NCBI RefSeq assembly: GCF_004010195.1
Contig: NC_057718.1
Location: 92,490,540-92,554,539, forward strand
Origin: Chiloscyllium plagiosum
Taxonomy: Eukaryota
Length of the DNA: 64,000 nucleotides
Direction: 5' to 3'
The notes below the pieces were generated by a model. The model was not told the DNA's origin and ran no database searches. It saw only the letters and a list, made by a program, of their open reading frames with translations. Both the position numbers and the translations under genes were made by a program. Positions 4,185 to 51,370 of this stretch are shown in pieces (the stretch's first letter is position 1; the number at the start of each line of letters is the position of its first letter).

Positions 4185-4401
4185 GAGACAAAAACACTGC
4201 AGATACTGGAATCCAAATAGACAGGCAGGAGGCTGGAAGGACACAGCAAGCCAGGCAGCATCAGGAGGTAGAGAAGTCGATGTTTCAGGTGTAACCCTTC
4301 AGCTCCCCCCACACCCACCCCCAGTCCTGAAGAAGGGTTACACCTGAAATGTCGACTTCTCTACCTACTGATGCTGCCTGGCTTGAGGTGTCCTTCTAGC
4401 C
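4185..4401. mobile_element. Penelope-derived foldback mini-element (two inverted pLTR arms)
   Basis: ~4230-4300 is the reverse complement of ~4332-4401; the left arm also carries the PLE tail (GCAGATACTGGA). Confidence 0.8.
4323..4357 (+). ncRNA. Minimal type I hammerhead ribozyme motif (CpG-decayed)
   Basis: AGTC-CTGAAGA-A-GGGT TAC ACCT-GAAA-TGTC-GACT; stem I AGTC/GACT pairs perfectly; two apparent CpG-to-TpG changes in stems II/III. Confidence 0.7.
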
Positions 4402-4995
4402 TTGCATTTTAATGCAGGCAGCATATTAAACATGTGATAAACAGAATTTTTTCTGTAAGTCATATCTTTTTAAAAGTGTGTACTGTAAATGATATTTTCG
4501 ACTTTTTCTATTAAACTGTATATTTTTCCCATGTATAGCCTTTAAATTGGAATTCAGATCCATGGAAAGGTTAGTCTAACAATAACGACCATTGAATAAT
4601 CCATGTTCTCGCACTGTTAAATAGTGAATACTTACTTCTCTTGAGGTCCAAGGGATTTTAACCACGCAATTTTATATCCCTTCCAGCCCCATTGCACTGT
4701 TCATCTGCTTATTGGCTTTATCTCACTTGCTGATCCTACCTTCTCTGATAGCTTTTAAGAATTTTTTTTTGACAGCTGCGTATTAGATGTCGCAAAATGA
4801 TCATCAGCAATGAGTGTGTAGATCCCTGTGCTTGGTCATCGACAGTGGCGACCTTGGAAGGGTGTAGAGCCCTTCCTATGGATTACCCCAGCTGTGGTCA
4901 TCCAGGAAAGCTGAAATGTAAATATTCAAATAATATTTATAATTATTTTGCACTATGTTTACAAAGTAAGTGTTGCTTGGGCAGCATTCATTCAT

Positions 4996-5161
4996 TGACA
5001 TTTCGGGCAAAAGCCTTTCATCAGGATGACATTCCTGATGAAGGGCTTTTACCTGAAATGTCAATTTTCCTGCTCTTCGGATGCTGCCTGACCTGCTGTG
5101 CTTTTCCAGCACCACACTCTCAACTCTGAATTCCAGCATTTGCAGTCCTCACTTTCGCCTC
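4996..5161. mobile_element. Penelope-derived foldback mini-element with hammerhead cores on both strands
   Basis: TSD GCATTCATTCAT at 4984-4995 and 5162-5173; palindromic centre ...TTCATCAGGA-TGACAT-TCCTGATGAA... Confidence 0.85.
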
Positions 5162-5871
5162 GCATTCATTCATGCCTCATCCACACTATTTTCCACACTA
5201 TCTTGATCGTTTTTCCCACAAAAGGTACAAATATTTTGCTTTAAGTGTTGATAATGTCCTTTCATGTTTCAAACAGTGTAAAGCTCCCCTTTCCTATTAT
5301 ACCATGTTGCTCTTGGATTAGAGCCCTTTGTTGTTGAGCCGCAATGATTTTGTTCAAAGTTGCAAAAATGTTGAACATTGGCAGCAATGATTTCTCAGTG
5401 TTAGTGTAACTATTAATTGTGAACTACTTTCTGATTGGCATATCTTTGAAGCATGGAATTAAAGATGACATGTAACCACAATAACATTTTAATTGTAGTT
5501 TTCTGCAGTAATTGAAAAGCCATATGAAGTGTAATTTGAAGGCTGCAATTTGAAGAAAGATAGCCTTCAGCAAATAGATTTGATTTAGTATGATGTTTTG
5601 GTGTGATCTACAGTAGGAGCAGGAATATGTTGTCCGTATCAAATGAAACACAAATATGCGTAATTTTTGTTTCTCTTTCCTTTTTACTAAAGGCCTTGAT
5701 CCCCTTATGGGGATATGATTCCATATATCTCCTTCAGGTGTTATGCCCGACTGACTATTATTCATGTGCAAACATTAGCAGTGAATGTAGACAGGCTATT
5801 TAACTGTGGAAATTTTCACTGCCTGCAATTACCTAATGTCCACATGCATATCATATTAGCACTGTCCACTA

Positions 5872-8755: not shown

Positions 8756-9763
8756 ATGACTCATATGCCCTTGCCATTCTATGTGACTGAGGTCACAGGT
8801 TTGGAAAATGCTGTTGAAGGAACCTGGGTGTATCTTGTAAATATTATATACTATACTGCTGCCATTGTATCTGCTGTGAAGTGAATTTCAGAGGTGGTGG
8901 ATAGGGGCTAATCAAGTTAACTGTTTTGTCCTGAGTGGTATCAAGCCGTCAGTTGCTGTTTGAATTGCACTCATCCAGTGATGTGAGGAGTATTCTATCA
9001 TATTCTTGGTTTTATGCCTTGTACATGATGAGTGTGTATTCAGGAGCCAGTAGTAGAGTTACGTAATGCAGATTTCTTAGGCTGTAACCTGTTTTGTAGC
9101 CATATCTGTACAGTTTGTCCTGTTCAGTTTCTGGTCAGTGGTAACTCCCGAGGATGTTGAAAGTTGTGGATTCAGAGATGGTTATGTCATTGAAAATTGA
9201 GAGGAAGTGGTTAGATTATCTGTTGTTGGTGATGGTCATTGCTGCTACTGTGAGGCATAATGAACACTTATCAGCACAAGTCTGCTGTTGTTCAGGTCAT
9301 GCTGCACAAGGACATAGGCTTCTTCACTATCAGAGGAGTGACAAATGGTGCTGAACTTTGTGAAATCAGCAAAGAATATGTCACTTCTGACCCATTGCTC
9401 GAAGCAAGCCATTTATGGAATGGCTCAAGATGGTTGGGCCCAGGACTCTACCCTGAAGAACTCTTGCAATGGTGTTCTTAGACTGAAATTGATTGACTGC
9501 TAACAACTAGAATAATCTTTGTGAAGAATATGATTCGAATCAATAGAGAGTTTTCCGCTTGATTCCCATTGTCTCCTGCATTGCTTCATTTTAACATAAG
9601 TGATCAAATGATATTTGATGTCAAGCACATTAACTCTCATCATACCTCTGGCATTCAACGCTTTTGTCCATGTTTGGACTGAAACTGTAAAAGGTCAGCA
9701 ATTGACGGAATCGATGGTGCTGCTCCTGGCATGCCTTCATTGTACCAGGGTTAGTCTTTTGCC

Positions 9764-9976
9764 TTAGTGGCGCTGGAAGAACACAGCAGTTCAGGCAGCA
9801 TCCAAGGAGCTTCGAAATCGACGTTTCGGGCAAAAGCCCTTCATATTCCTGATGAAGGGCTTTTGCCCGAAACGTCGATTTCGAAGCTCCTTGGATGCTG
9901 CCTGAACTGCTGTGCTCTTCTAGCACCACTAATCCAGAATCTGGTTTCCAGCATCTGCAGTCATTGTTTTTACCCC
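9764..9976. mobile_element. Young Penelope-derived foldback mini-element
   Basis: ~81 bp near-perfect inverted arms (9764-9844 / 9852-9932), PLE tail on the right; TSD TTAGTCTTTTGCCTTA at 9751-9766 and 9977-9992. Confidence 0.92.
9845..9880 (+). ncRNA. Minimal hammerhead ribozyme motif, intact core
   Basis: ATTC-CTGATGA-A-GGGC TTTT GCCC-GAAA-CGTC-GATT; predicted cleavage after GUC at 9876; stem III is the palindrome ACGU. Confidence 0.8.
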
Positions 9977-10809
9977 TTAGTCTTTTGCCTTACAGGTAAT
10001 GATGAAGTGAGGGATATGCCAAGCTTTGAGGTTACAGATCTTTGTTGAATAGACTTCTCTTGCTATGAGTGCCCACAGAACCTCATAGGTTATTAGATCA
10101 TTTCAAAGTTTAGCATATTTAGCATGATGATAGTGACTCACAGCACGGAGTGTATTCTCATTATGAAGACTTTGTTTCCATGAGGCCTGTGCAGTGTTCA
10201 CCCTTACCACTGCAGTCATGGAGAGATATGTCTGCAGCAAGTAGGTTTGTGATGATGAAGTCAATCAGTTTTTCTTTTTGGTTGGTTCTTTCACTATCTA
10301 CAGCTGACGTGATGTCCTTTAGTACTCTGTTGAATCCGTCAGTAATAGCACTGCTGAATCACTGTGGACATTGAAATTCTGCACCTAGAATTCATCATTT
10401 GTCTGTTTGCACCCTCAGGTCTTCTAATTGCTGTTTAAAATGAAGGTGGACTGAATCAGCAGCCGTGGGGGGCTTTAACCGCAGTAAATTCACTTGCCCG
10501 TGTTTGACCTGAGGCTGTAAGATTTCATGGCGTCCAAAATCAATGTTGAGAATTCACAAGGCAGTTCCCTTACCGCTGTGCCACCTCCTCTGGTGGGACA
10601 AGACCTGCCCTGGAATAGTGATGATTGCATCAGGGACTTTACCGATAGTGTATGACTCAGAGTATGATTAGGTCAGATGATTCCTACAAACTGCCAGATG
10701 GTAGTAAGGAGAACTTTGCAGTGTCAGCAGGATCAGGATTTGCCTTTGCCCTCGCTGGTGTCTAAGTCTAGATTGGGTAGTCTATCAGGTTTCATTTATG
10801 GTTGTAGTG

Positions 10810-12079: not shown

Positions 12080-14080
12080 CCATAGGATATAGGAGCAGAA
12101 ATTAGACCATTTGGCCCATCGAGTCTGCTCAATTATGGTTGATAAGTTTTTCAATCCCATTTTCCTGCTTTCTCCCTGTAACCTTTGATATCCTTGTCAA
12201 TCAAGAATTTATCTATCTCTGTTAACACTCAATGATCTGGCCTCCACAGCCCTTTGGCAATGAATTCCATAGATTCATCACTCTCTAGGTAAAGAAGTTT
12301 CTCCTTATCTCAGTTCTAAAGAATCTTTACTCTAAGATTGTACTCTCAGGTACTCGTTTCTCCTGCCAGTGGAAACATCTTCCCAATGTCCACTCTGTCC
12401 AGGCCATTCAGTATTCTGTAAGTTTCAATCAGATCCCCCTCATCGTTCTAAACTCCATTGAGTATAGTCCCAGAGTCCTCAAGCGTTCTTCATATGTTAA
12501 GCGTTTCATTCCTGGGATCATTCTCGTGAACGTCTTCTGGACCTGCTCCAGGGCCAAATCATCCTTTCTGAAGCATGGGGCCCAAAATTGCTCACCATAC
12601 TCTAAATGTGGTCTGAACCAGAACCTTATAAAGCCTCAGAAATACATCCCCACTTTTATATTCTAGTCCTGTCGAGATTAATGACAACATTGTATTTGTC
12701 TTCCTAAATACCAACTCAACCTGCAAGTTTACTTTAAGAGAAACCTGAACTAGGACTCCCAAGTCCCTTTGCACTTCAGATTTCTGAATTTTCTCCCAAT
12801 TTAGTTTCTCCCCATTAAGTCCATGCCTTTATTCTTCCTACCAAAGTGCATGACCTCGCATTTTATCACAATGTATTTCAACTAGGTAAAAACAAGGACT
12901 TCAGATGCTGGAAACCAGATTCTAGATTAGAGTGGTTCTGGAAAAGCACAGAGTTCAGGCAGCTATTCCTGATGAAGGGCTTTTGCCCGAAACGTCAATT
13001 TTCCTGCTCCTCGGATGCTACCTGAACTTCTGTGTTTTTCCAGCTCCACTCTAATCCACAATGTATTTCAGCTGTCACTTCTTTGCCCACTCTCCTAACC
13101 TGTATAAATCTTTCTGCAGCCTTCCCATATCCTCAATACTACCTTCCCCTTCACCTATCTTTGCATCATCTGCAAACTTAGCCAGAATACCCACAGTTCC
13201 TTTATCCAGATCATTATTGTATAAAGTGAAAAGTTGTGGTCCCAACACTGACTTTTGTGGAACTCCACTAGTTACCGGCTTCCATGCTGAGGAGGACCCT
13301 TTTATCCCCACTTTCTGCTTTTTGCCAGACATTCTTTCCATGCTCATACCTTGCCTCTAACACCATGGCCCTTTATCTTTCTTAGCAGCTTCCAGTGTGA
13401 AACCGTATTAAAGGCCTCTGAAAGTCCAAATGGATAACATCCATTAGCTCTCCTTGGTCTAACCTGCTCGTTACCTCCTCAAAGAATTCTATTAGATTTG
13501 TCAGGCATGACCTCCTCTTGATGAAACCATTCTGACTTTGCCTTATTTTATCATACATTTCCAAGTATTCAGAAATCTCATACATCCAAAGTCTTATCAA
13601 CAATTGAGCTCAGGCTAATCAGCCTAGAATTTCCTATCTTTTGCCTTACTCCCTCCTTAAACAGGGGGGTTAAAATAGTGCTTTTCCAGTCCTCTGGGAC
13701 CCTCTCTGACTCCAGAGTTCACTCCTGAAAGATCACTATTCAAGCCTCCTCTGTCCCTTCAGCTATCTCCTTCAGAACTCTGGGATGTTGTCCATCTGGT
13801 CCAAGTGATTTATCCACCTTCAGACCCTACTGTTTTTCTCGCACCTTCTCCCTGGTGATGGCCACCATACTCATCTCTGCCCCCCGACTCTCTTGAATTT
13901 TTGGGATATTACTCATGTCTTCCACTGTGAAGACTGATGCAAATTACTTATTACTCAGCCATTTCTTTGATCCCCATTGCCACTTCTCCAGCATCATTTT
14001 CCAGTGGTCCAGTGTCCACTTTTACCTCTTACTTGCCCTTTATATATCTAAGGAGACTCTTGCAATCTTTTCTAATATTA
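12080..14080 (-). mobile_element. CR1 LINE, 5'-truncated (RT + 3' UTR)
   Basis: ORF-track fragments SGVPQKSVLGPQLFTLYNNDLD...KFADDAKIG and RSCLTNLIEFFEEV; same subfamily as 57010-62535. Confidence 0.92.
12884..13056. mobile_element. Penelope-derived foldback mini-element with hammerhead, nested in CR1
   Basis: TSD CACAATGTATTTCA at 12867-12880 and 13057-13070; inverted arms; CTGATGA-A-GGGC TTTT GCCC-GAAA-CGTC at 12969-12996. Confidence 0.9.
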
Positions 14081-19305: not shown

Positions 19306-19351
19306 CAATAATATAACTATCCTGAGCCACACCGTGTAAGGACGAGTTACT

Positions 19352-19707
19352 GTTGAAAAGTGTGGCGTTGGAAAAGCACAGCAGGTCAGGCAGCATCTGA
19401 GGAGCAGGACAGTCAACGTTTTGGTAACACACTAGTTAACTTGTAAGAATAAGTAGTGATTACCGATCCTATTTCCAGAAACCACTAATTAATTTTCTAG
19501 AATAAGCTTTCATTGTTTATTTCTGCAGAACTGATGTTTTTGGCTCCAAAACCAGGAAAGACAAAGTACTGAATATGATTCTTCGAATAACAAAGTAGTT
19601 TCACATACAAATAAACTATTGTCATTCCTTATGCCCAAAACGTCGACTCTCTTGCTCCTCGGATGCTACCTGACCTGCTCTGCTTTTCCAGGGCCACACT
19701 TTTCGAC
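19352..19707. mobile_element. Pair of inverted Penelope pLTR arms enclosing ~200 bp of non-PLE sequence
   Basis: 19352-19424 is the reverse complement of ~19635-19707. Confidence 0.75.
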
Positions 19708-20449
19708 CTTAAATGTGCAAGAGTTTACGTCTGATCCTAGCAACTTTGATGAATTGTAAAGTTGAAAATTATTTAGACTTTTCATTTTCCATTTTGCACA
19801 TCCTTTGTGAAACTTGGCAGCTCACAGATTTTGCGAACAATGAGTTTTAAATGTTGGCAATGTATTTTTGTTGTAAATTCCAAATTCAGGAGCTACTTGT
19901 TAAATGTAATTTGTTCACACAACAATCATCTTAATACTTCAGTGTCTGCTTTTGTCTCATGCAATTTTATCCTTACATCAGCGAAGACCAGTATAAAATG
20001 ACTATCTTTAAATGAAGAAATTCTTATCAAGTCAATTTAACTAATGGAAATAGAAGATTCAATTCACAATTCATTCAAAAGTGTTTTTAAACAATCATTT
20101 GAAGTTCATAATATGTAAAGGTGTAAATTTTGCACTTTAAGGAACTGACTGATGACAGCAGGGCAAATAGTGGAATAAATTAACTTCAGAGAATGATAAT
20201 TTTTTTATTTTTAACTTATTTTAATATTAATGGGTAACTTTAATCAAGTAACTTTAAACTGCAAACCTTTATAATCCCAATAAATCATTATAATTGTTCA
20301 TGTTAGGTAGTATTAAAATTCAAAAAATGTTGAAGGAAAATAATGAATTTTAGAATACCTGTTTAATGTAGTCAATTAATTTACAAACTGTTGAGTTAGT
20401 TTAAATGCCAAGAAGTAATTAACGCACTATAAAAATACCTTTTATTTTT

Positions 20450-30524: not shown

Positions 30525-31060
30525 TCAGAGCAGGCCATTTTCCCTCAACCTGATGCACCATTTGATATCATAGCTAGTTTTCTACCTCCAGTTCTACCCT
30601 CCAGCACTTTCCCCATATTCCTTATTGCTGAAAATGTGTTGCTGGAAAAGCGCAGCAGCACATTCCAGCAACACATTTTCAGCTCTGATCTCCAGCATCT
30701 GTAGTCCTCACTTTCTCCATATTCCTTATTGCCCTTACAACCAAAATCTCTGTTGATTTTTATCTTGGATATGTTCAGTGAGTGGGCATCCACAGCCTTA
30801 TGGACAGAGAATTCTTAAAATTCACAACCTTTTCTTTTCTTAGCCCTCAACAGTTAATCCTTTATTTTCTGAGATTGTGACCACCAACCCATGAAATATC
30901 ATTTTAGGAACTAAGCTCTTAAGAATTTTCAGCCTCAACAGGATCACCTTGATTCTTCTAAATTTTGGAGAACATAGAACCAGACTACTGAATATCTCTT
31001 TCTTAGTCAGTCCTGTCATCCCTGCAATCAGGCAGGTGTACATTTGGTGCATTTCCTGTA
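30525..31060 (-). mobile_element. CR1 3' fragment (degenerate)
   Basis: Reverse translation includes IAGMTGL..KE....LVLCSPKFRRIK; CR1 tail near 30530. Confidence 0.7.
30629..30716. mobile_element. 88-bp Penelope-derived foldback micro-insertion
   Basis: TSD CCATATTCCTTATTGC at 30613-30628 and 30717-30732; arms TGAAAATGTGTTGCTGGAA / TTCCAGCAACACATTTTCA plus PLE tail. Confidence 0.88.
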
Positions 31061-36247: not shown

Positions 36248-37670
36248 AGCCTAACCTGTATATGAGTACCATTGAGTTTGACCAGAGAATACTGTATCCA
36301 AATACGACAACGTGAATATCTGCACGATTTTTGTCTTTCACAGAAGTTAAGAAGGCAATTAATAACTATCAATTTTGGTGCAAAGCTCAAAAGCTGCATA
36401 ATAAAGTTTGACATTTTCTGAAGCATATATAACCTACACAGTGATATTGAGCAGAAAAAGAATGGATGAGTTCTACGTAGAAGTTATGTCATAGAAATAG
36501 AATACTTGGCACAAACAGTGTGGATAGGCATTTACCTATCACCTGAGCAAAAAATTCTAATTATATTCACCTGTTTTCTGTTTGCATGTTTCAGTCATTT
36601 ATTTTAATTAAATTATCAAATCCAGGTTTGCATTTCCCCTGCTTTACATTTCAGTCATGAAATTTGAAAGTGAATTCCACATTGCCTAATCTTTTTGTGT
36701 GAAAAGGTTTTTATTTGCCCTTTATTCTGTATCTCTAACATTTTGTTCGTATCAGTGCCCTTTGTTTCCAGCAGTTAAGCAATCAGAAACAATCAGTTTC
36801 TATCTCATGCATTCCAACTTTTCAAGCCTCAATATTTTCCCTGTGGTGTTGAGCCCATTAACTGAAGATAGTACTTTGAGGCAGGTGATTTGCTTTTGGA
36901 TGCCTGTCAATTTCTATATCAGACACCTTTATCCTTTGATTATATTCTGCTTGTAAGTCATTCCCAACCTTCTGTTATTTTATATCTAAACTTCCCAAAT
37001 TTGCCAATTATAGTCCAATTTGTAATTTTTTCCCTTATACCTGTTATTCTCTAAACAACCACCCAAACCTCTTGATTGGATTCCAACCTGTAACTCATTG
37101 CTACATATTGACTACTGTAAAAATAAACCATCTGAATTTTCTGGATCAACTCCAGTGTGCAGTTCACGACAGTGGTTGAACTACTTTTCAACAGTAATTG
37201 AATCTGCTGTTCAATAGAAAAGTAATTATTGTTTTGTAAAATGGTATATCATTGTGTTACACTTGTGATACTTGTCAGCCAGTTTTGTAGCAATAATTAG
37301 GTAAATCTTTTATTGAAATTTGTGTATGTCTGTTTTAGGATTAATTTTGTATGCCTCTTGTATTTTTGCATCTCTGCCTCGGCCATGGGCCCTCGACTGT
37401 GTTTGCTGTTTATTTGCTCCCATGTTTGTGGGGCTACATCTTCCAAAGTACGAAAATAGAATTCACATTTAAATATTTTCAATTTTCAGCAAAGATAATC
37501 TACAGCCTGATTATTCAAACCCAAAAGACATAATGTAATTTTGAAACTTTATATTTCAACAAATTAAACACTTTAATGTTTTAAGTCAGTAAGTTGGATC
37601 GTGTTGTTCCCGAAAGAGGGTCCCTGTGCAATTTGTTCTGTGTAGAGAACCCTGAGCCAATATAACAATC

Positions 37671-37794
37671 CCCCCACCTTGTCTCAGTCCTCATTTCCCC
37701 TCCCCCACCTTGTCTCAGTCAAATTCCTCGAACTCATCCTGTTCCTTGGATGCTGCCTGACCTGCTGCGCTTTTCCAGCAACACATTTTCAGCT
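37671..37794 (+). mobile_element. Short Penelope-derived insertion
   Basis: TSD CCAATATAACAATC at 37657-37670 and 37795-37808; pLTR sequence GGATGCTGCCTGACCTGCTGCGCTTTTCCAGCAACAC. Confidence 0.82.
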
Positions 37795-38759
37795 CCAATA
37801 TAACAATCATCTTGTTGATCCAATACTAAAATTAACACAAACACACATCATCTGGATTAACTTTGTAGAGATAATGTCAACTATCCAAATAAGTATTGTT
37901 GAAGAAAATACAGCAACAGAATTCATATTAAAACAGATCAAAAACTCCAAGTTAGTGACAGAAAAGAAACCCAATGATTTCAGGTCGGCCTGAGATTCCC
38001 TTACAAACATTCTGGTGATCAGGGTCTCCCATTGTAAACTATATTTTAATACAACAGTAACAACAGTTGTAATGCACAAGCTCTGTAGCCATGTTTATGT
38101 ATATTGATATTTGATTTAAGACACCTTGCACGCATACAGAATGAAATTAAGTGAACTGATGTAAAGCAATAACTTTTCGATGTCTTGATTCAAATTTTCA
38201 GCTTTATCTGAAATGTTAATACTTAGCTATTTTTTAATCAAATGCAGCACATTAATATGCATTTGGAAATTTTCAGCGACAGAATAAAGATGCTGAATTG
38301 AATGAGAATTCAAACTGATGCAAGTATTGTTATAATCCTCTTTCATTGTAGAACCAGCATTTTCTGAATAATAGGTAATGAATTGCAAATTTGCAAGTGC
38401 TGATGTCATTGAGAGTCATTGGGATGTTAATGTTGACTTTCGTTTTGTGCATTTTATCTGCTAAAACGAATATTAAAGTTCAACATTAAAGTTTTTAAAT
38501 TTCATGAAACATTTGAAAGTCACAAAAGTAACAGTGTTAGAGTAACAAGCTCTGAAAACGTGCTTTCATCCACATTGTCTTTTGGGTTCCTATTAAAGTT
38601 TTGTGGCTTTTTTATTTTTGTTGTCCTGTAGCCTAAGAAAGAAAGAAAGATGAGCAAAGATCAAAGATAAACATTGCATGCATTATTTTGCCAAGTAAAT
38701 GAGACAAGAGGACAAGCTGACCCTTAGATGAATAAAGTTGTTGTCTCTCATTCTTACAG

Positions 38760-44629: not shown

Positions 44630-45012
44630 CTGTTGTGGTGTCACCATAGTCTGACTAGACCATCGGGGCTGCTCTCTTATTAAAGAGAAGTAGCTGGTGA
44701 TGATTTAACCTGAGTGCCACCAGACCTCAGGCGAGGGAAGAGTTGAGAAGGAAAATCCTTCATGGTAGTCTCAAACCAGTGGTAGAATTGAATGCACGCT
44801 GTTGGTGTCACACTACTCTGTAAACTGAGGGTTTTCCTGATGAAGGGCTTTTGCCCGAAACGTCGATTTTACTGCTCCTCGGATGCTGCCTGAACTGCTG
44901 TGCTTTTCCAGCACCAATCTAATCTAGACTCTCGTTTCCAGCATCTGCAGTCATTATTTTTATCTTTATAACTACTCTGTAAATCAATGATCCAGCCAAC
45001 TGAGCTAAACCA
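44630..45012 (-). mobile_element. tRNA-derived SINE of a different family, interrupted by a PLE mini-element
   Basis: Reverse complement begins GGTTTAGCTCAGTTGG (A box); B-box-like ATTCAATTC follows once the insert is removed. Confidence 0.6.
44825..44970 (+). mobile_element. Penelope pLTR-only insertion with intact hammerhead core
   Basis: TSD ACTACTCTGTAAA at 44812-44824 and 44971-44983; CTGATGA-A-GGGC TTTT GCCC-GAAA-CGTC at 44837-44864. Confidence 0.9.
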
Positions 45013-50610: not shown

Positions 50611-50671
50611 CAAACAAGAGCATTGCCTTAGGATGGGACAGATATTTAATGAGGTAGGTTTGAAACAATAT

Positions 50672-51370
50672 GGCCAGCATATGGATATAAAAGAGACCTC
50701 AGCGGCAACTTTTTCACGCAGAGGGTGGTATGTGTATGGAATGAGCTGCCAGAGGAAATGGTGAAGACTATACAATTGCTACATTTAAAAGGCATCTGGA
50801 TGGATGTATGAATAGGAAGAGTTTGGAGGGATATGGGCCAGCAGCTGAGACTAGATTGGGTTGGGATATCTGGTTGGCATGGACAAGGTGGACCTTGGAG
50901 TGCAGGTTCATAGCTCCTTGAAAATGGAATCACAGGTAGATAGGATAGTGAAGAAGGTGTTTGGTATGCTTTCCTTTATTGTTTCCAACCTACCTCATTA
51001 AATATCTATCCCACCCTAAGGCAATGCTCTCGTTTGATGTTAGCCAGATTCTACCACTCACCTCATCCAGAAGAACTCGCCCGTGCTTGGAATTCCAGAA
51101 TAGATTGTCATCCCTGGTGCCAATGCCACACTTAAAAGGTTGTGGCACATCTGGACAAGTACTGTCAGTCTGGAGCTGCCCTGCATGGTGACTGACATTT
51201 ATTCTGTATATGGCAGAGAAGGGATGATATGGAGGTGCCAGTGTTGGATTAGGGTGGACAAAGTCAGTAGTATAGGAGTTGGGAGGTCACGTTGTGGGCT
51301 ATACAGAACATTGTTTCAGCCACTTTTGGAATATTGCATGCAATTTTGGTCTGTGTCTCTATGACTCTAT
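50672..51370 (+). mobile_element. Scrambled CR1 (HER1-like) fragments with an internal foreign insert
   Basis: 3' end (50680-50895) fused to an upstream RT piece (DLGVQVHSS, 50891-50980); CR1 resumes at ~51266. Confidence 0.75.

What the first reader, a model, noticed from the sequence alone, without database searches (positions are those of the whole stretch)
9751..9992. Palindromic ~210-bp Penelope mini-retroelement with an intact hammerhead ribozyme and a 16-bp TSD (type copy of a recurrent system)
Seen: two ~81-bp inverted arms meet at CTGATGA-A-GGGC TTTT GCCC-GAAA-CGTC. One arm carries a ~45-nt extra tail, and TTAGTCTTTTGCCTTA is duplicated on both sides. The same tail-plus-TSD design recurs at 4996, 12884, 30629, 37671 and 44825 (the last two with one arm only). 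Foldbacks without a clear TSD occur at 4185, 28170 and 52195. None has coding sequence. Established: Penelope-like elements carry minimal hammerheads in their pLTRs and often have inverted 5' pLTRs. Inference: these behave as a MITE-looking but retrotransposed, non-autonomous ribozyme-hairpin class, dense enough to shape the genome. Arms repeatedly begin just 5' of the ribozyme core, which may mark a preferred RT stop or template-switch site.
Basis: partly seen in the sequence, partly recalled or inferred. Interest (0 to 1): 0.75.

Follow-up and report, generated by a model that had tools for sequence, protein, structure and literature searches.

The report
Head-to-head Penelope retroelement stub, ribozyme buried
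This 210-base mirror-image insertion is real and absent from the same site in a related species, but it is one of thousands of short stubs of a known kind of jumping gene (Penelope-like), likely built anew at each landing site when both cut DNA strands copy the element's RNA, and its ribozyme is predicted to be locked inside the hairpin.

Summary
In detail: two 78-bp inverted arms, a 16-bp TSD and a minimal hammerhead motif; a related species has the empty site.

The arm is the pLTR plus tail of an abundant Neptune-type Penelope-like element; a 99%-identical arm follows a GIY-YIG fragment elsewhere. The genome holds 22,918 exact tail motifs and 1,980 such hairpins.

A propagating mini-element is not supported: 33 of 35 hairpins have distinct centres, and the 14 copies of this exact centre span four subfamilies with the tail on either arm.

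All 35 hairpins pair one tailed arm with one tail-less arm. Neither arm is routinely contained in the other, and one insertion joins two subfamilies. This favours priming from both cut strands at two fixed RNA sites over snap-back copying.

The ribozyme is predicted to be sequestered (27.8 kcal/mol). The architecture is published, and this scan noted it before (74 notes, at least 12 genomes).

The parts
9751..9766 (+). Left target-site duplication (16 bp). Its last 3 nt (TTA) also match the inverted arm.
   Evidence: present once at the empty site in organism B
9767..9844 (-). Inverted, tail-less pLTR arm (element positions q5 to q82-85; q1 = 9848). Its hammerhead core is broken.
9845..9939 (+). 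Direct pLTR arm, q-2 (ATT) to q92
   Evidence: 99.2% identical over q1-127 to the arm of EN-bearing copy L090
9849..9876 (+). Minimal type I hammerhead motif: core 9849-9855, extra A 9856, stem II 9857-9868, GAAA 9869-9872, CGUC 9873-9876. Predicted cut after 9876.
   Evidence: layout matches the min-HHR of PMC4209133
9940..9974 (+). 35-nt tail (q93-q127), which in other copies runs on into the start of the element's ORF region
9975..9976 (+). Two extra C, matching neither the element's continuation nor the left flank
   Evidence: continuation sequence
9977..9992 (+). Right target-site duplication (16 bp)
4984..5173 (+). Related insertion, older subfamily: short inverted arm plus tailed arm, 12-bp TSD
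12867..13070 (.). Related head-to-head insertion with the tail on the left arm, 14-bp TSD
30613..30732 (+). Very short head-to-head insertion without hammerhead, 16-bp TSD
   Evidence: read by eye
37657..37808 (+). Single tail-less arm without hammerhead, 14-bp TSD
44812..44983 (+). Single arm with hammerhead motif and tail, 13-bp TSD

Best explanation
The element is a short head-to-head insertion of the pLTR and tail of a Neptune-type Penelope-like retroelement, likely made when the element's enzyme cut both target strands about 16 nt apart and each cut end primed its own short cDNA on the element's RNA.

Shown:
- Parentage, TSD and empty site.
- Fixed outer ends (q126-130 and about q92).
- One tailed and one tail-less arm per hairpin.
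- Variable inner ends that pile up at the ribozyme's 5' edge.

Inferred:
- One strand starts at the tail end and the other about 35 nt upstream, helped by 1-3 nt of pairing (here TTA moved the start to q82-85).
- Both cDNAs stopped at the ribozyme's 5' edge and were end-joined.
- The product is a dead end whose ribozyme is predicted to be sequestered.

Cause of the stop zone is unresolved. My odds: RNA 5' end of a short pLTR leader about 0.5, RT pause about 0.3, endonuclease nick at ATT or a splice boundary about 0.2.
For: Parent: RT (RVT_1, E 2.4e-8), GIY-YIG (E 9e-5) and a CX4CxxC linker lie upstream of this arm family.

Empty site: contigs from two studies of organism B join 9753 to 9980, a 226-nt skip equal to the element plus one TSD.

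Ends: tails end at q126-130 in nearly all of 94 copies. 33 of 40 inverted arms end at q86-97 and none at q98-100. 35 of 35 hairpins have one long and one short arm.

Independent arms: in 30 adjacent pairs the inverted arm reaches further 5' in 14, the tailed arm in 9, and 7 are within 5 nt. L059 joins two subfamilies inside one 16-bp TSD.

Microhomology: 2.0 nt at the inverted end versus 0.56 shuffled (n=30), and 1.3 versus 0.47 at the tail end (n=88).

Published biochemistry: an anole PLE protein cuts and extends both strands and has two RT starts bracketing the tail (PMC11167929).
Against: - Most hairpins have same-subfamily arms (26 of 35 concordant by an automatic hexamer call; most of the rest were uncalled), which snap-back copying also predicts.
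- Asymmetric centres could arise by later deletion in a long palindrome.
- PMC11167929 reports no difference in start site between strands and no homology at the start, so the strict pairing and the microhomology go beyond what that paper shows.
- The microhomology values are inflated by calling the longest possible TSD.
- The stop zone was chosen after seeing the data; 4 ends were hand-corrected and 15 of 94 were censored by withheld sequence.
- The sample is from the first 7 Mb of one contig.
Confidence: 0.72

Rival explanations
1. Snap-back or self-priming: one cDNA folds back at its 3' end and copies itself (or an antisense template self-primes), and the endonuclease resolves the intermediate to leave a tail on one side.
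For: Proposed for Adineta PLEs from palindromes at inverted junctions (PMC3846280 passages). The tail is ascribed to EN resolution in PMC8557442. Several centres here contain short perfect palindromes (listing). It always gives one tail.
Against: The inverted arm holds sequence absent from the tailed arm in 14 of 30 pairs. One insertion has arms from two subfamilies (L059) and a second looks discordant (L163). Single arms also end at about q92 with a TSD (37671; several loci), so that end exists without a fold-back.
Confidence: 0.18
2. A non-autonomous palindromic mini-element (MITE-looking, retrozyme-like) is transcribed and re-inserted as a unit by the parent's enzyme.
For: The exact centre recurs at 14 loci. 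At least 1,980 hairpins exist. pLTR sequence alone suffices for mobilisation in trans in Adineta (PMC3846280). RNA reads cross some inverted joints (3 reads at each of two joints).
Against: The 14 loci fall into 4 subfamilies (5, 4, 3 and 2 loci), with the tail on the ATT arm in 5, on the other arm in 8 and absent in 1. 33 of 35 centres are distinct. TSD-to-tail spans form a continuum from 119 to 1163 bp. The window copy's three arm differences are not shared by its three same-centre, same-subfamily relatives.
Confidence: 0.07
3. A DNA-level MITE or post-insertion inverted duplication.
For: Terminal inverted repeats and small size.
Against: Variable 11-18-bp TSDs, asymmetric ends fixed at element-specific sites, and collinearity with RT/GIY-YIG coding copies.
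Confidence: 0.03

Closest known systems
EN+ Penelope-like insertions with inverted pLTR, 30-40-bp tail and TSD (Adineta vaga Pen2a, PMC3846280; general scheme in PMC8557442)
   Same: Head-to-head inverted 5'-truncated pLTR, 35-nt tail on one end only, variable-length TSD, hammerhead in the pLTR.
   Different: No ORF between the arms: both sides stop within the pLTR, giving a 210-bp hairpin. TSDs are longer (mode 14-16 versus 8-10 bp in the Adineta passages read). Thousands of copies.
Neptune clade of PLEs (or Nematis)
   Same: RT with YIDD and a GxAMG motif, C-terminal GIY-YIG with two internal cysteines, and a CX2-5CxxC linker, which PMC8557442 says is absent from Penelope/Poseidon.
   Different: No tree was built, so Neptune versus Nematis is not formally separated. 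Neptune is preferred from its vertebrate distribution (named for fishes in PMC4209133).
Poseidon of Anolis carolinensis (PAc) in vitro system, PMC11167929
   Same: Two fixed 3' ends bracketing the tail, both target strands used, hammerhead at the pLTR-ORF junction.
   Different: Different PLE clade. The strict one-tailed/one-tail-less pairing, the 1-3-nt microhomology and the stop zone were not in the main text I read.
Minimal PLE hammerheads (PMC4209133)
   Same: Extra nucleotide before stem II, G-C first pair, palindromic 15.2-16.2, no helix III loop. That paper also notes motif pairs on opposite strands about 100-700 bp apart.
   Different: Here the motif is paired inside a 78-bp stem and the mirror copy lacks CUG.
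Non-LTR retrozymes (bioRxiv 10.64898/2026.07.22.740005)
   Same: Non-coding, derived from PLE pLTR, type I hammerhead.
   Different: Retrozymes are direct tandem repeats with at least two complete ribozymes in one orientation. This element is inverted with one motif.
L1 twin priming (recalled, not from a call)
   Same: Both nicked strands prime cDNA, giving an inverted 5' part inside a TSD.
   Different: In L1 the inverted part comes from a different, upstream RNA region. Here both arms copy the same region from two fixed start sites.

Membership tests
EN+ Penelope-like element (parent family) | RT domain followed by a C-terminal GIY-YIG endonuclease | tested here: met
   RVT_1 in L062 and GIY-YIG in L008/L015. 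An EN fragment is collinear with a 99.2%-identical arm in L090. No intact full-length ORF was seen, because long copies have withheld interiors.
EN+ Penelope-like element | pLTR in direct tandem and inverted arrangement | tested here: met
   Direct tandems and inverted arms; inverted arm in 40 of 94 tailed copies
EN+ Penelope-like element | 30-40-bp tail on one end that overlaps the ORF-start region | tested here: met
   q93-q127, 35 nt. 883 exact matches to the motif just downstream of the tail; most of the 30 fetched copies run from the tail into the ORF region.
EN+ Penelope-like element | Variable-length TSD and empty orthologous site | tested here: met
   88 of 188 distinct tails have an exact TSD of 11-18 bp; empty site
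Neptune/Nematis clade | CX2-5CxxC linker between RT and EN | tested here: met
   Seen in L010, L019, L088, L090, L095, L107 and L142; definition from PMC8557442
Neptune clade | RT phylogeny | not tested
   No reference set was in hand
Minimal hammerhead ribozyme | Conserved core, stem II and GUH site | tested here: met
   stem II probability 0.95 in the isolated arm
Minimal hammerhead ribozyme | Able to fold in its genomic context | tested here: not met
   Stem II probability 0.0 and a 27.8 kcal/mol penalty in the full element; stem I has only 2 pairs before a U-U mismatch (prediction only)
Minimal hammerhead ribozyme | Self-cleavage | not testable with these tools
   RNA reads showed no piled-up ends; the genomic test was ambiguous
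Propagating non-autonomous element | Copies share centre, polarity and diagnostic variants from one master | tested here: not met
Non-LTR retrozyme | Direct tandem units with two or more complete hammerheads | tested here: not met
   One motif, inverted arrangement
MITE | Fixed-length TSD and symmetric terminal inverted repeats | tested here: not met
   TSD 11-18 bp; one-sided tail in 35 of 35 hairpins

The most novel reading that the evidence does not exclude
The thousands of stubs are a fossil record of the unsolved PLE insertion cycle. A dimeric enzyme would prime both target strands on two adjacent RNA sites in an obligate one-of-each pairing, occasionally on two different RNAs. The 5' ends would map two RNA ends in vivo: the leader's start at q-7..+8 and the hammerhead cut at q30. 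The latter would be genomic evidence that the minimal ribozyme cleaves in the germ line, which RNA-seq failed to show in the anole.
Probability: 0.3. Interest if true: 0.6.

Novelty: new member of a known kind. Interest (0 to 1): 0.3.

Why it matters
The locus itself is an ordinary dead insertion. Its value is as data. How Penelope-like elements make inverted pLTRs and one-sided tails is stated to be unresolved (PMC8557442). This family is young and numerous enough to discriminate between models by counting junctions, and the counts made here favour two-strand priming over the published self-priming idea. It is also an annotation warning: these stubs look like MITEs or ribozyme genes and are neither. 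The copy is a presence/absence marker between two related species.

Tried and rejected
1. Rfam scan: no family at gathering score.

2. Loose hammerhead pattern: 19 window matches versus 10.9 expected, too loose to use.

3. Ribozyme-cut footprint, genome-wide.
- A pattern for arms starting at q30 gave 760 hits. Of 30 loci checked, 18 lie in an internal 17-nt duplication of one subfamily, 3 are 1-nt insertions and 9 are true starts.
- Controls gave 61 at q27 (not checked locus by locus) and 217 at q33. About 56 of the 100 listed q33 hits were 1-nt deletions by eye, and that pattern carried an extra base that excludes an older subfamily.
- The rough excess at q30 is 3-8-fold, but most such junctions share GA with the inverted arm, so the true end is ambiguous. 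Inconclusive.

4. A single transcription start at the stop zone. About 6 of the 10 fetched ORF-continuing copies that reach the ribozyme's 5' edge extend further upstream, 3 stop in the zone and 1 is unreadable (by eye). No untemplated G was evident at solo 5' ends (by eye).

5. RNA. No RNA holder was listed for the locus. On a family reference, X21 gave 1,223 reads in both mate directions with no place where many molecules begin or end; X22 gave no reads (no test).

6. In organism A samples X5 and X7 no listed contig spans the site, which says nothing about polymorphism.

7. The TSD part failed on a regex error and was redone.

8. A shared-junction direct-tandem mini-unit: junctions were mostly different.

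9. I first took the parent for Poseidon and corrected this to Neptune-type.

Full report
Coordinates. q1 is window 9848, the first C of CCTGATGA.

Observation. The element spans 9767-9976 between two copies of a 16-bp repeat. It is the strongest inverted repeat in the window. The arms pair over 78 bp with 3 mismatches. The right arm carries the hammerhead motif at 9849-9876 and continues for 47 nt.

It is a true insertion. In two studies of a related species (organism B), one contig runs from 9980-10800 directly into 9431-9753. That is a skip of 226 nt, equal to the element plus one TSD, with flanks differing at 40 of about 1,140 positions. The 3/78 difference between the arms fits an insertion near or after that split (inference).

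Parent. The right arm matched all 40 scored loci (of 1,055 candidates) at 97-100%. Many of these continue upstream into a 3' UTR and coding remnants. The remnants include RT (RVT_1, E 2.4e-8), GIY-YIG (E 9e-5) and a CX4CxxC linker. PMC8557442 (passages) gives that linker as present in Neptune and Nematis and absent in Penelope/Poseidon. L090 has the EN fragment collinear with an arm 99.2% identical to ours. An exact 22-nt tail motif occurs 22,918 times, and a motif just downstream of the tail 883 times.

Is the hairpin a propagating class? An exact-arm pattern with a centre of at most 30 nt finds 1,980 loci. I examined 35 of the 50 listed: 33 centres are distinct and 23 have a TSD of 10 bp or more. 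Our exact centre occurs 14 times. Those 14 belong to four subfamilies, and the tail sits on the ATT-bearing arm in 5, on the other arm in 8 and is missing in 1. One master cannot easily give this pattern, whereas independent joining within narrow stop zones does. Spans of TSD-flanked inverted insertions run continuously from 119 to 1163 bp.

Ends. I fetched 94 of the first 100 listed tail copies, selected without regard to their 5' side. Tails end at q126-130 in nearly all. Forty have an inverted arm, and 33 of those end at q86-97, mostly q92-93. All 35 hairpins pair a long arm (q114 or more) with a short one (q105 or less). Inner ends vary, but 24 of 94 tailed arms stop at q-7..+8, a rate of 0.0355 per nt against 0.0047 elsewhere (Poisson p about 1e-13). 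Fifteen of 40 inverted arms stop at q-10..+8. Caveats: the zone was chosen post hoc, 4 values were hand-corrected, and 15 copies were censored. A second zone at q28-39 (14 events, p about 4e-6) overlaps the predicted cut site at q30. It also overlaps the subfamily-variable stretch where alignments drift, and the genome-wide test was ambiguous.

Mechanism. PMC11167929 (parts 1-2 of 4 read: main text and start of methods; supplements not seen, and its Fig. S2 may bear on insertion ends) shows a PLE protein cutting and extending both target strands, with two RT start sites bracketing the tail. It found ribozyme cleavage dispensable in vitro and no RNA-seq ends at the cut site. The two fixed outer ends here match that scheme. 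Neither arm is routinely contained in the other (14, 9 and 7 of 30 pairs), and L059 combines two subfamilies within one TSD. TSD ends share more bases with the element than shuffled pairs do; at our locus this is TTA. I therefore favour priming from both strands followed by end-joining (0.72) over the self-priming model in PMC3846280 (passages; 0.18). Against this: most arm pairs are of one subfamily, and central deletions could create asymmetry afterwards. Why cDNAs stop at the ribozyme's 5' edge is not settled. Copies that run into the ORF often extend upstream of it, and RNA reads showed no piled ends.

Ribozyme. The motif matches the minimal hammerhead of PMC4209133 (parts 1-2 of 4 read), where a tested single motif did not cleave and dimers cleaved weakly. 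In the isolated arm stem II forms with probability 0.95. In the whole element it forms with probability 0.0, and forcing a ribozyme-compatible fold costs 27.8 kcal/mol. The minus-strand copy lacks CUG. It is not a retrozyme by the tandem criterion of bioRxiv 10.64898/2026.07.22.740005 (part 1 of 5 read).

Novelty. The inverted pLTR, one-sided tail and TSD are described (PMC8557442, PMC3846280). Six literature searches (listings only, apart from the papers named) showed no paper on this family or on twin priming in PLEs; subscription journals and Repbase were not covered. The scan's own notes hold 74 matching findings in at least 12 genomes, several with the same reading. These are not independent evidence, and my reading was recorded before I saw them.

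Verdict. A real feature and a new member of a known kind. Interest 0.3.

Noticed in passing
L173, L179, L190 and others: One subfamily carries an internal 17-nt tandem duplication just 3' of the hammerhead (q30-46), seen in both short and long copies, so a source element with this duplication was active.
   Followed up: partly
L205, L207, L209, L212, L216, L221: Short direct-tandem units: pLTR, tail, a short piece of the ORF start, a jump to the 3' UTR, then pLTR again. Junctions mostly differ, but L209 and L212 share nearly the same one. These carry two same-strand hammerheads and are better retrozyme candidates than the palindromes.
   Followed up: partly
L059: TSD-flanked hairpin whose two arms come from different subfamilies; L163 looks similar.
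   Followed up: partly
L115, L219, L226, L036: Template jumps into the arm land at ATT or a few bases upstream, the same zone where cDNAs stop. ATT is also the preferred cut motif reported for the anole enzyme (PMC11167929).
   Followed up: no
L225:1336-1356 and most long copies: A pyrimidine tract ending in CAG lies about 18 nt upstream of the ribozyme and resembles a splice acceptor. In D. virilis the PLE intron ends at the ribozyme's helix I (PMC4209133).
   Followed up: no
window 50611-51036: 60-bp inverted repeat, 93% complementary, 306 nt apart, unrelated to the Penelope arm.
   Followed up: no
window 19347-19712: Two older-subfamily arms in head-to-head orientation separated by 210 nt of unrelated sequence, with no clear TSD.
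   Followed up: no
window 4185, 28170, 41911, 49542, 52195: At least three further, more diverged Penelope-like pLTR families, several with different stem II sequences in the hammerhead motif.
   Followed up: partly
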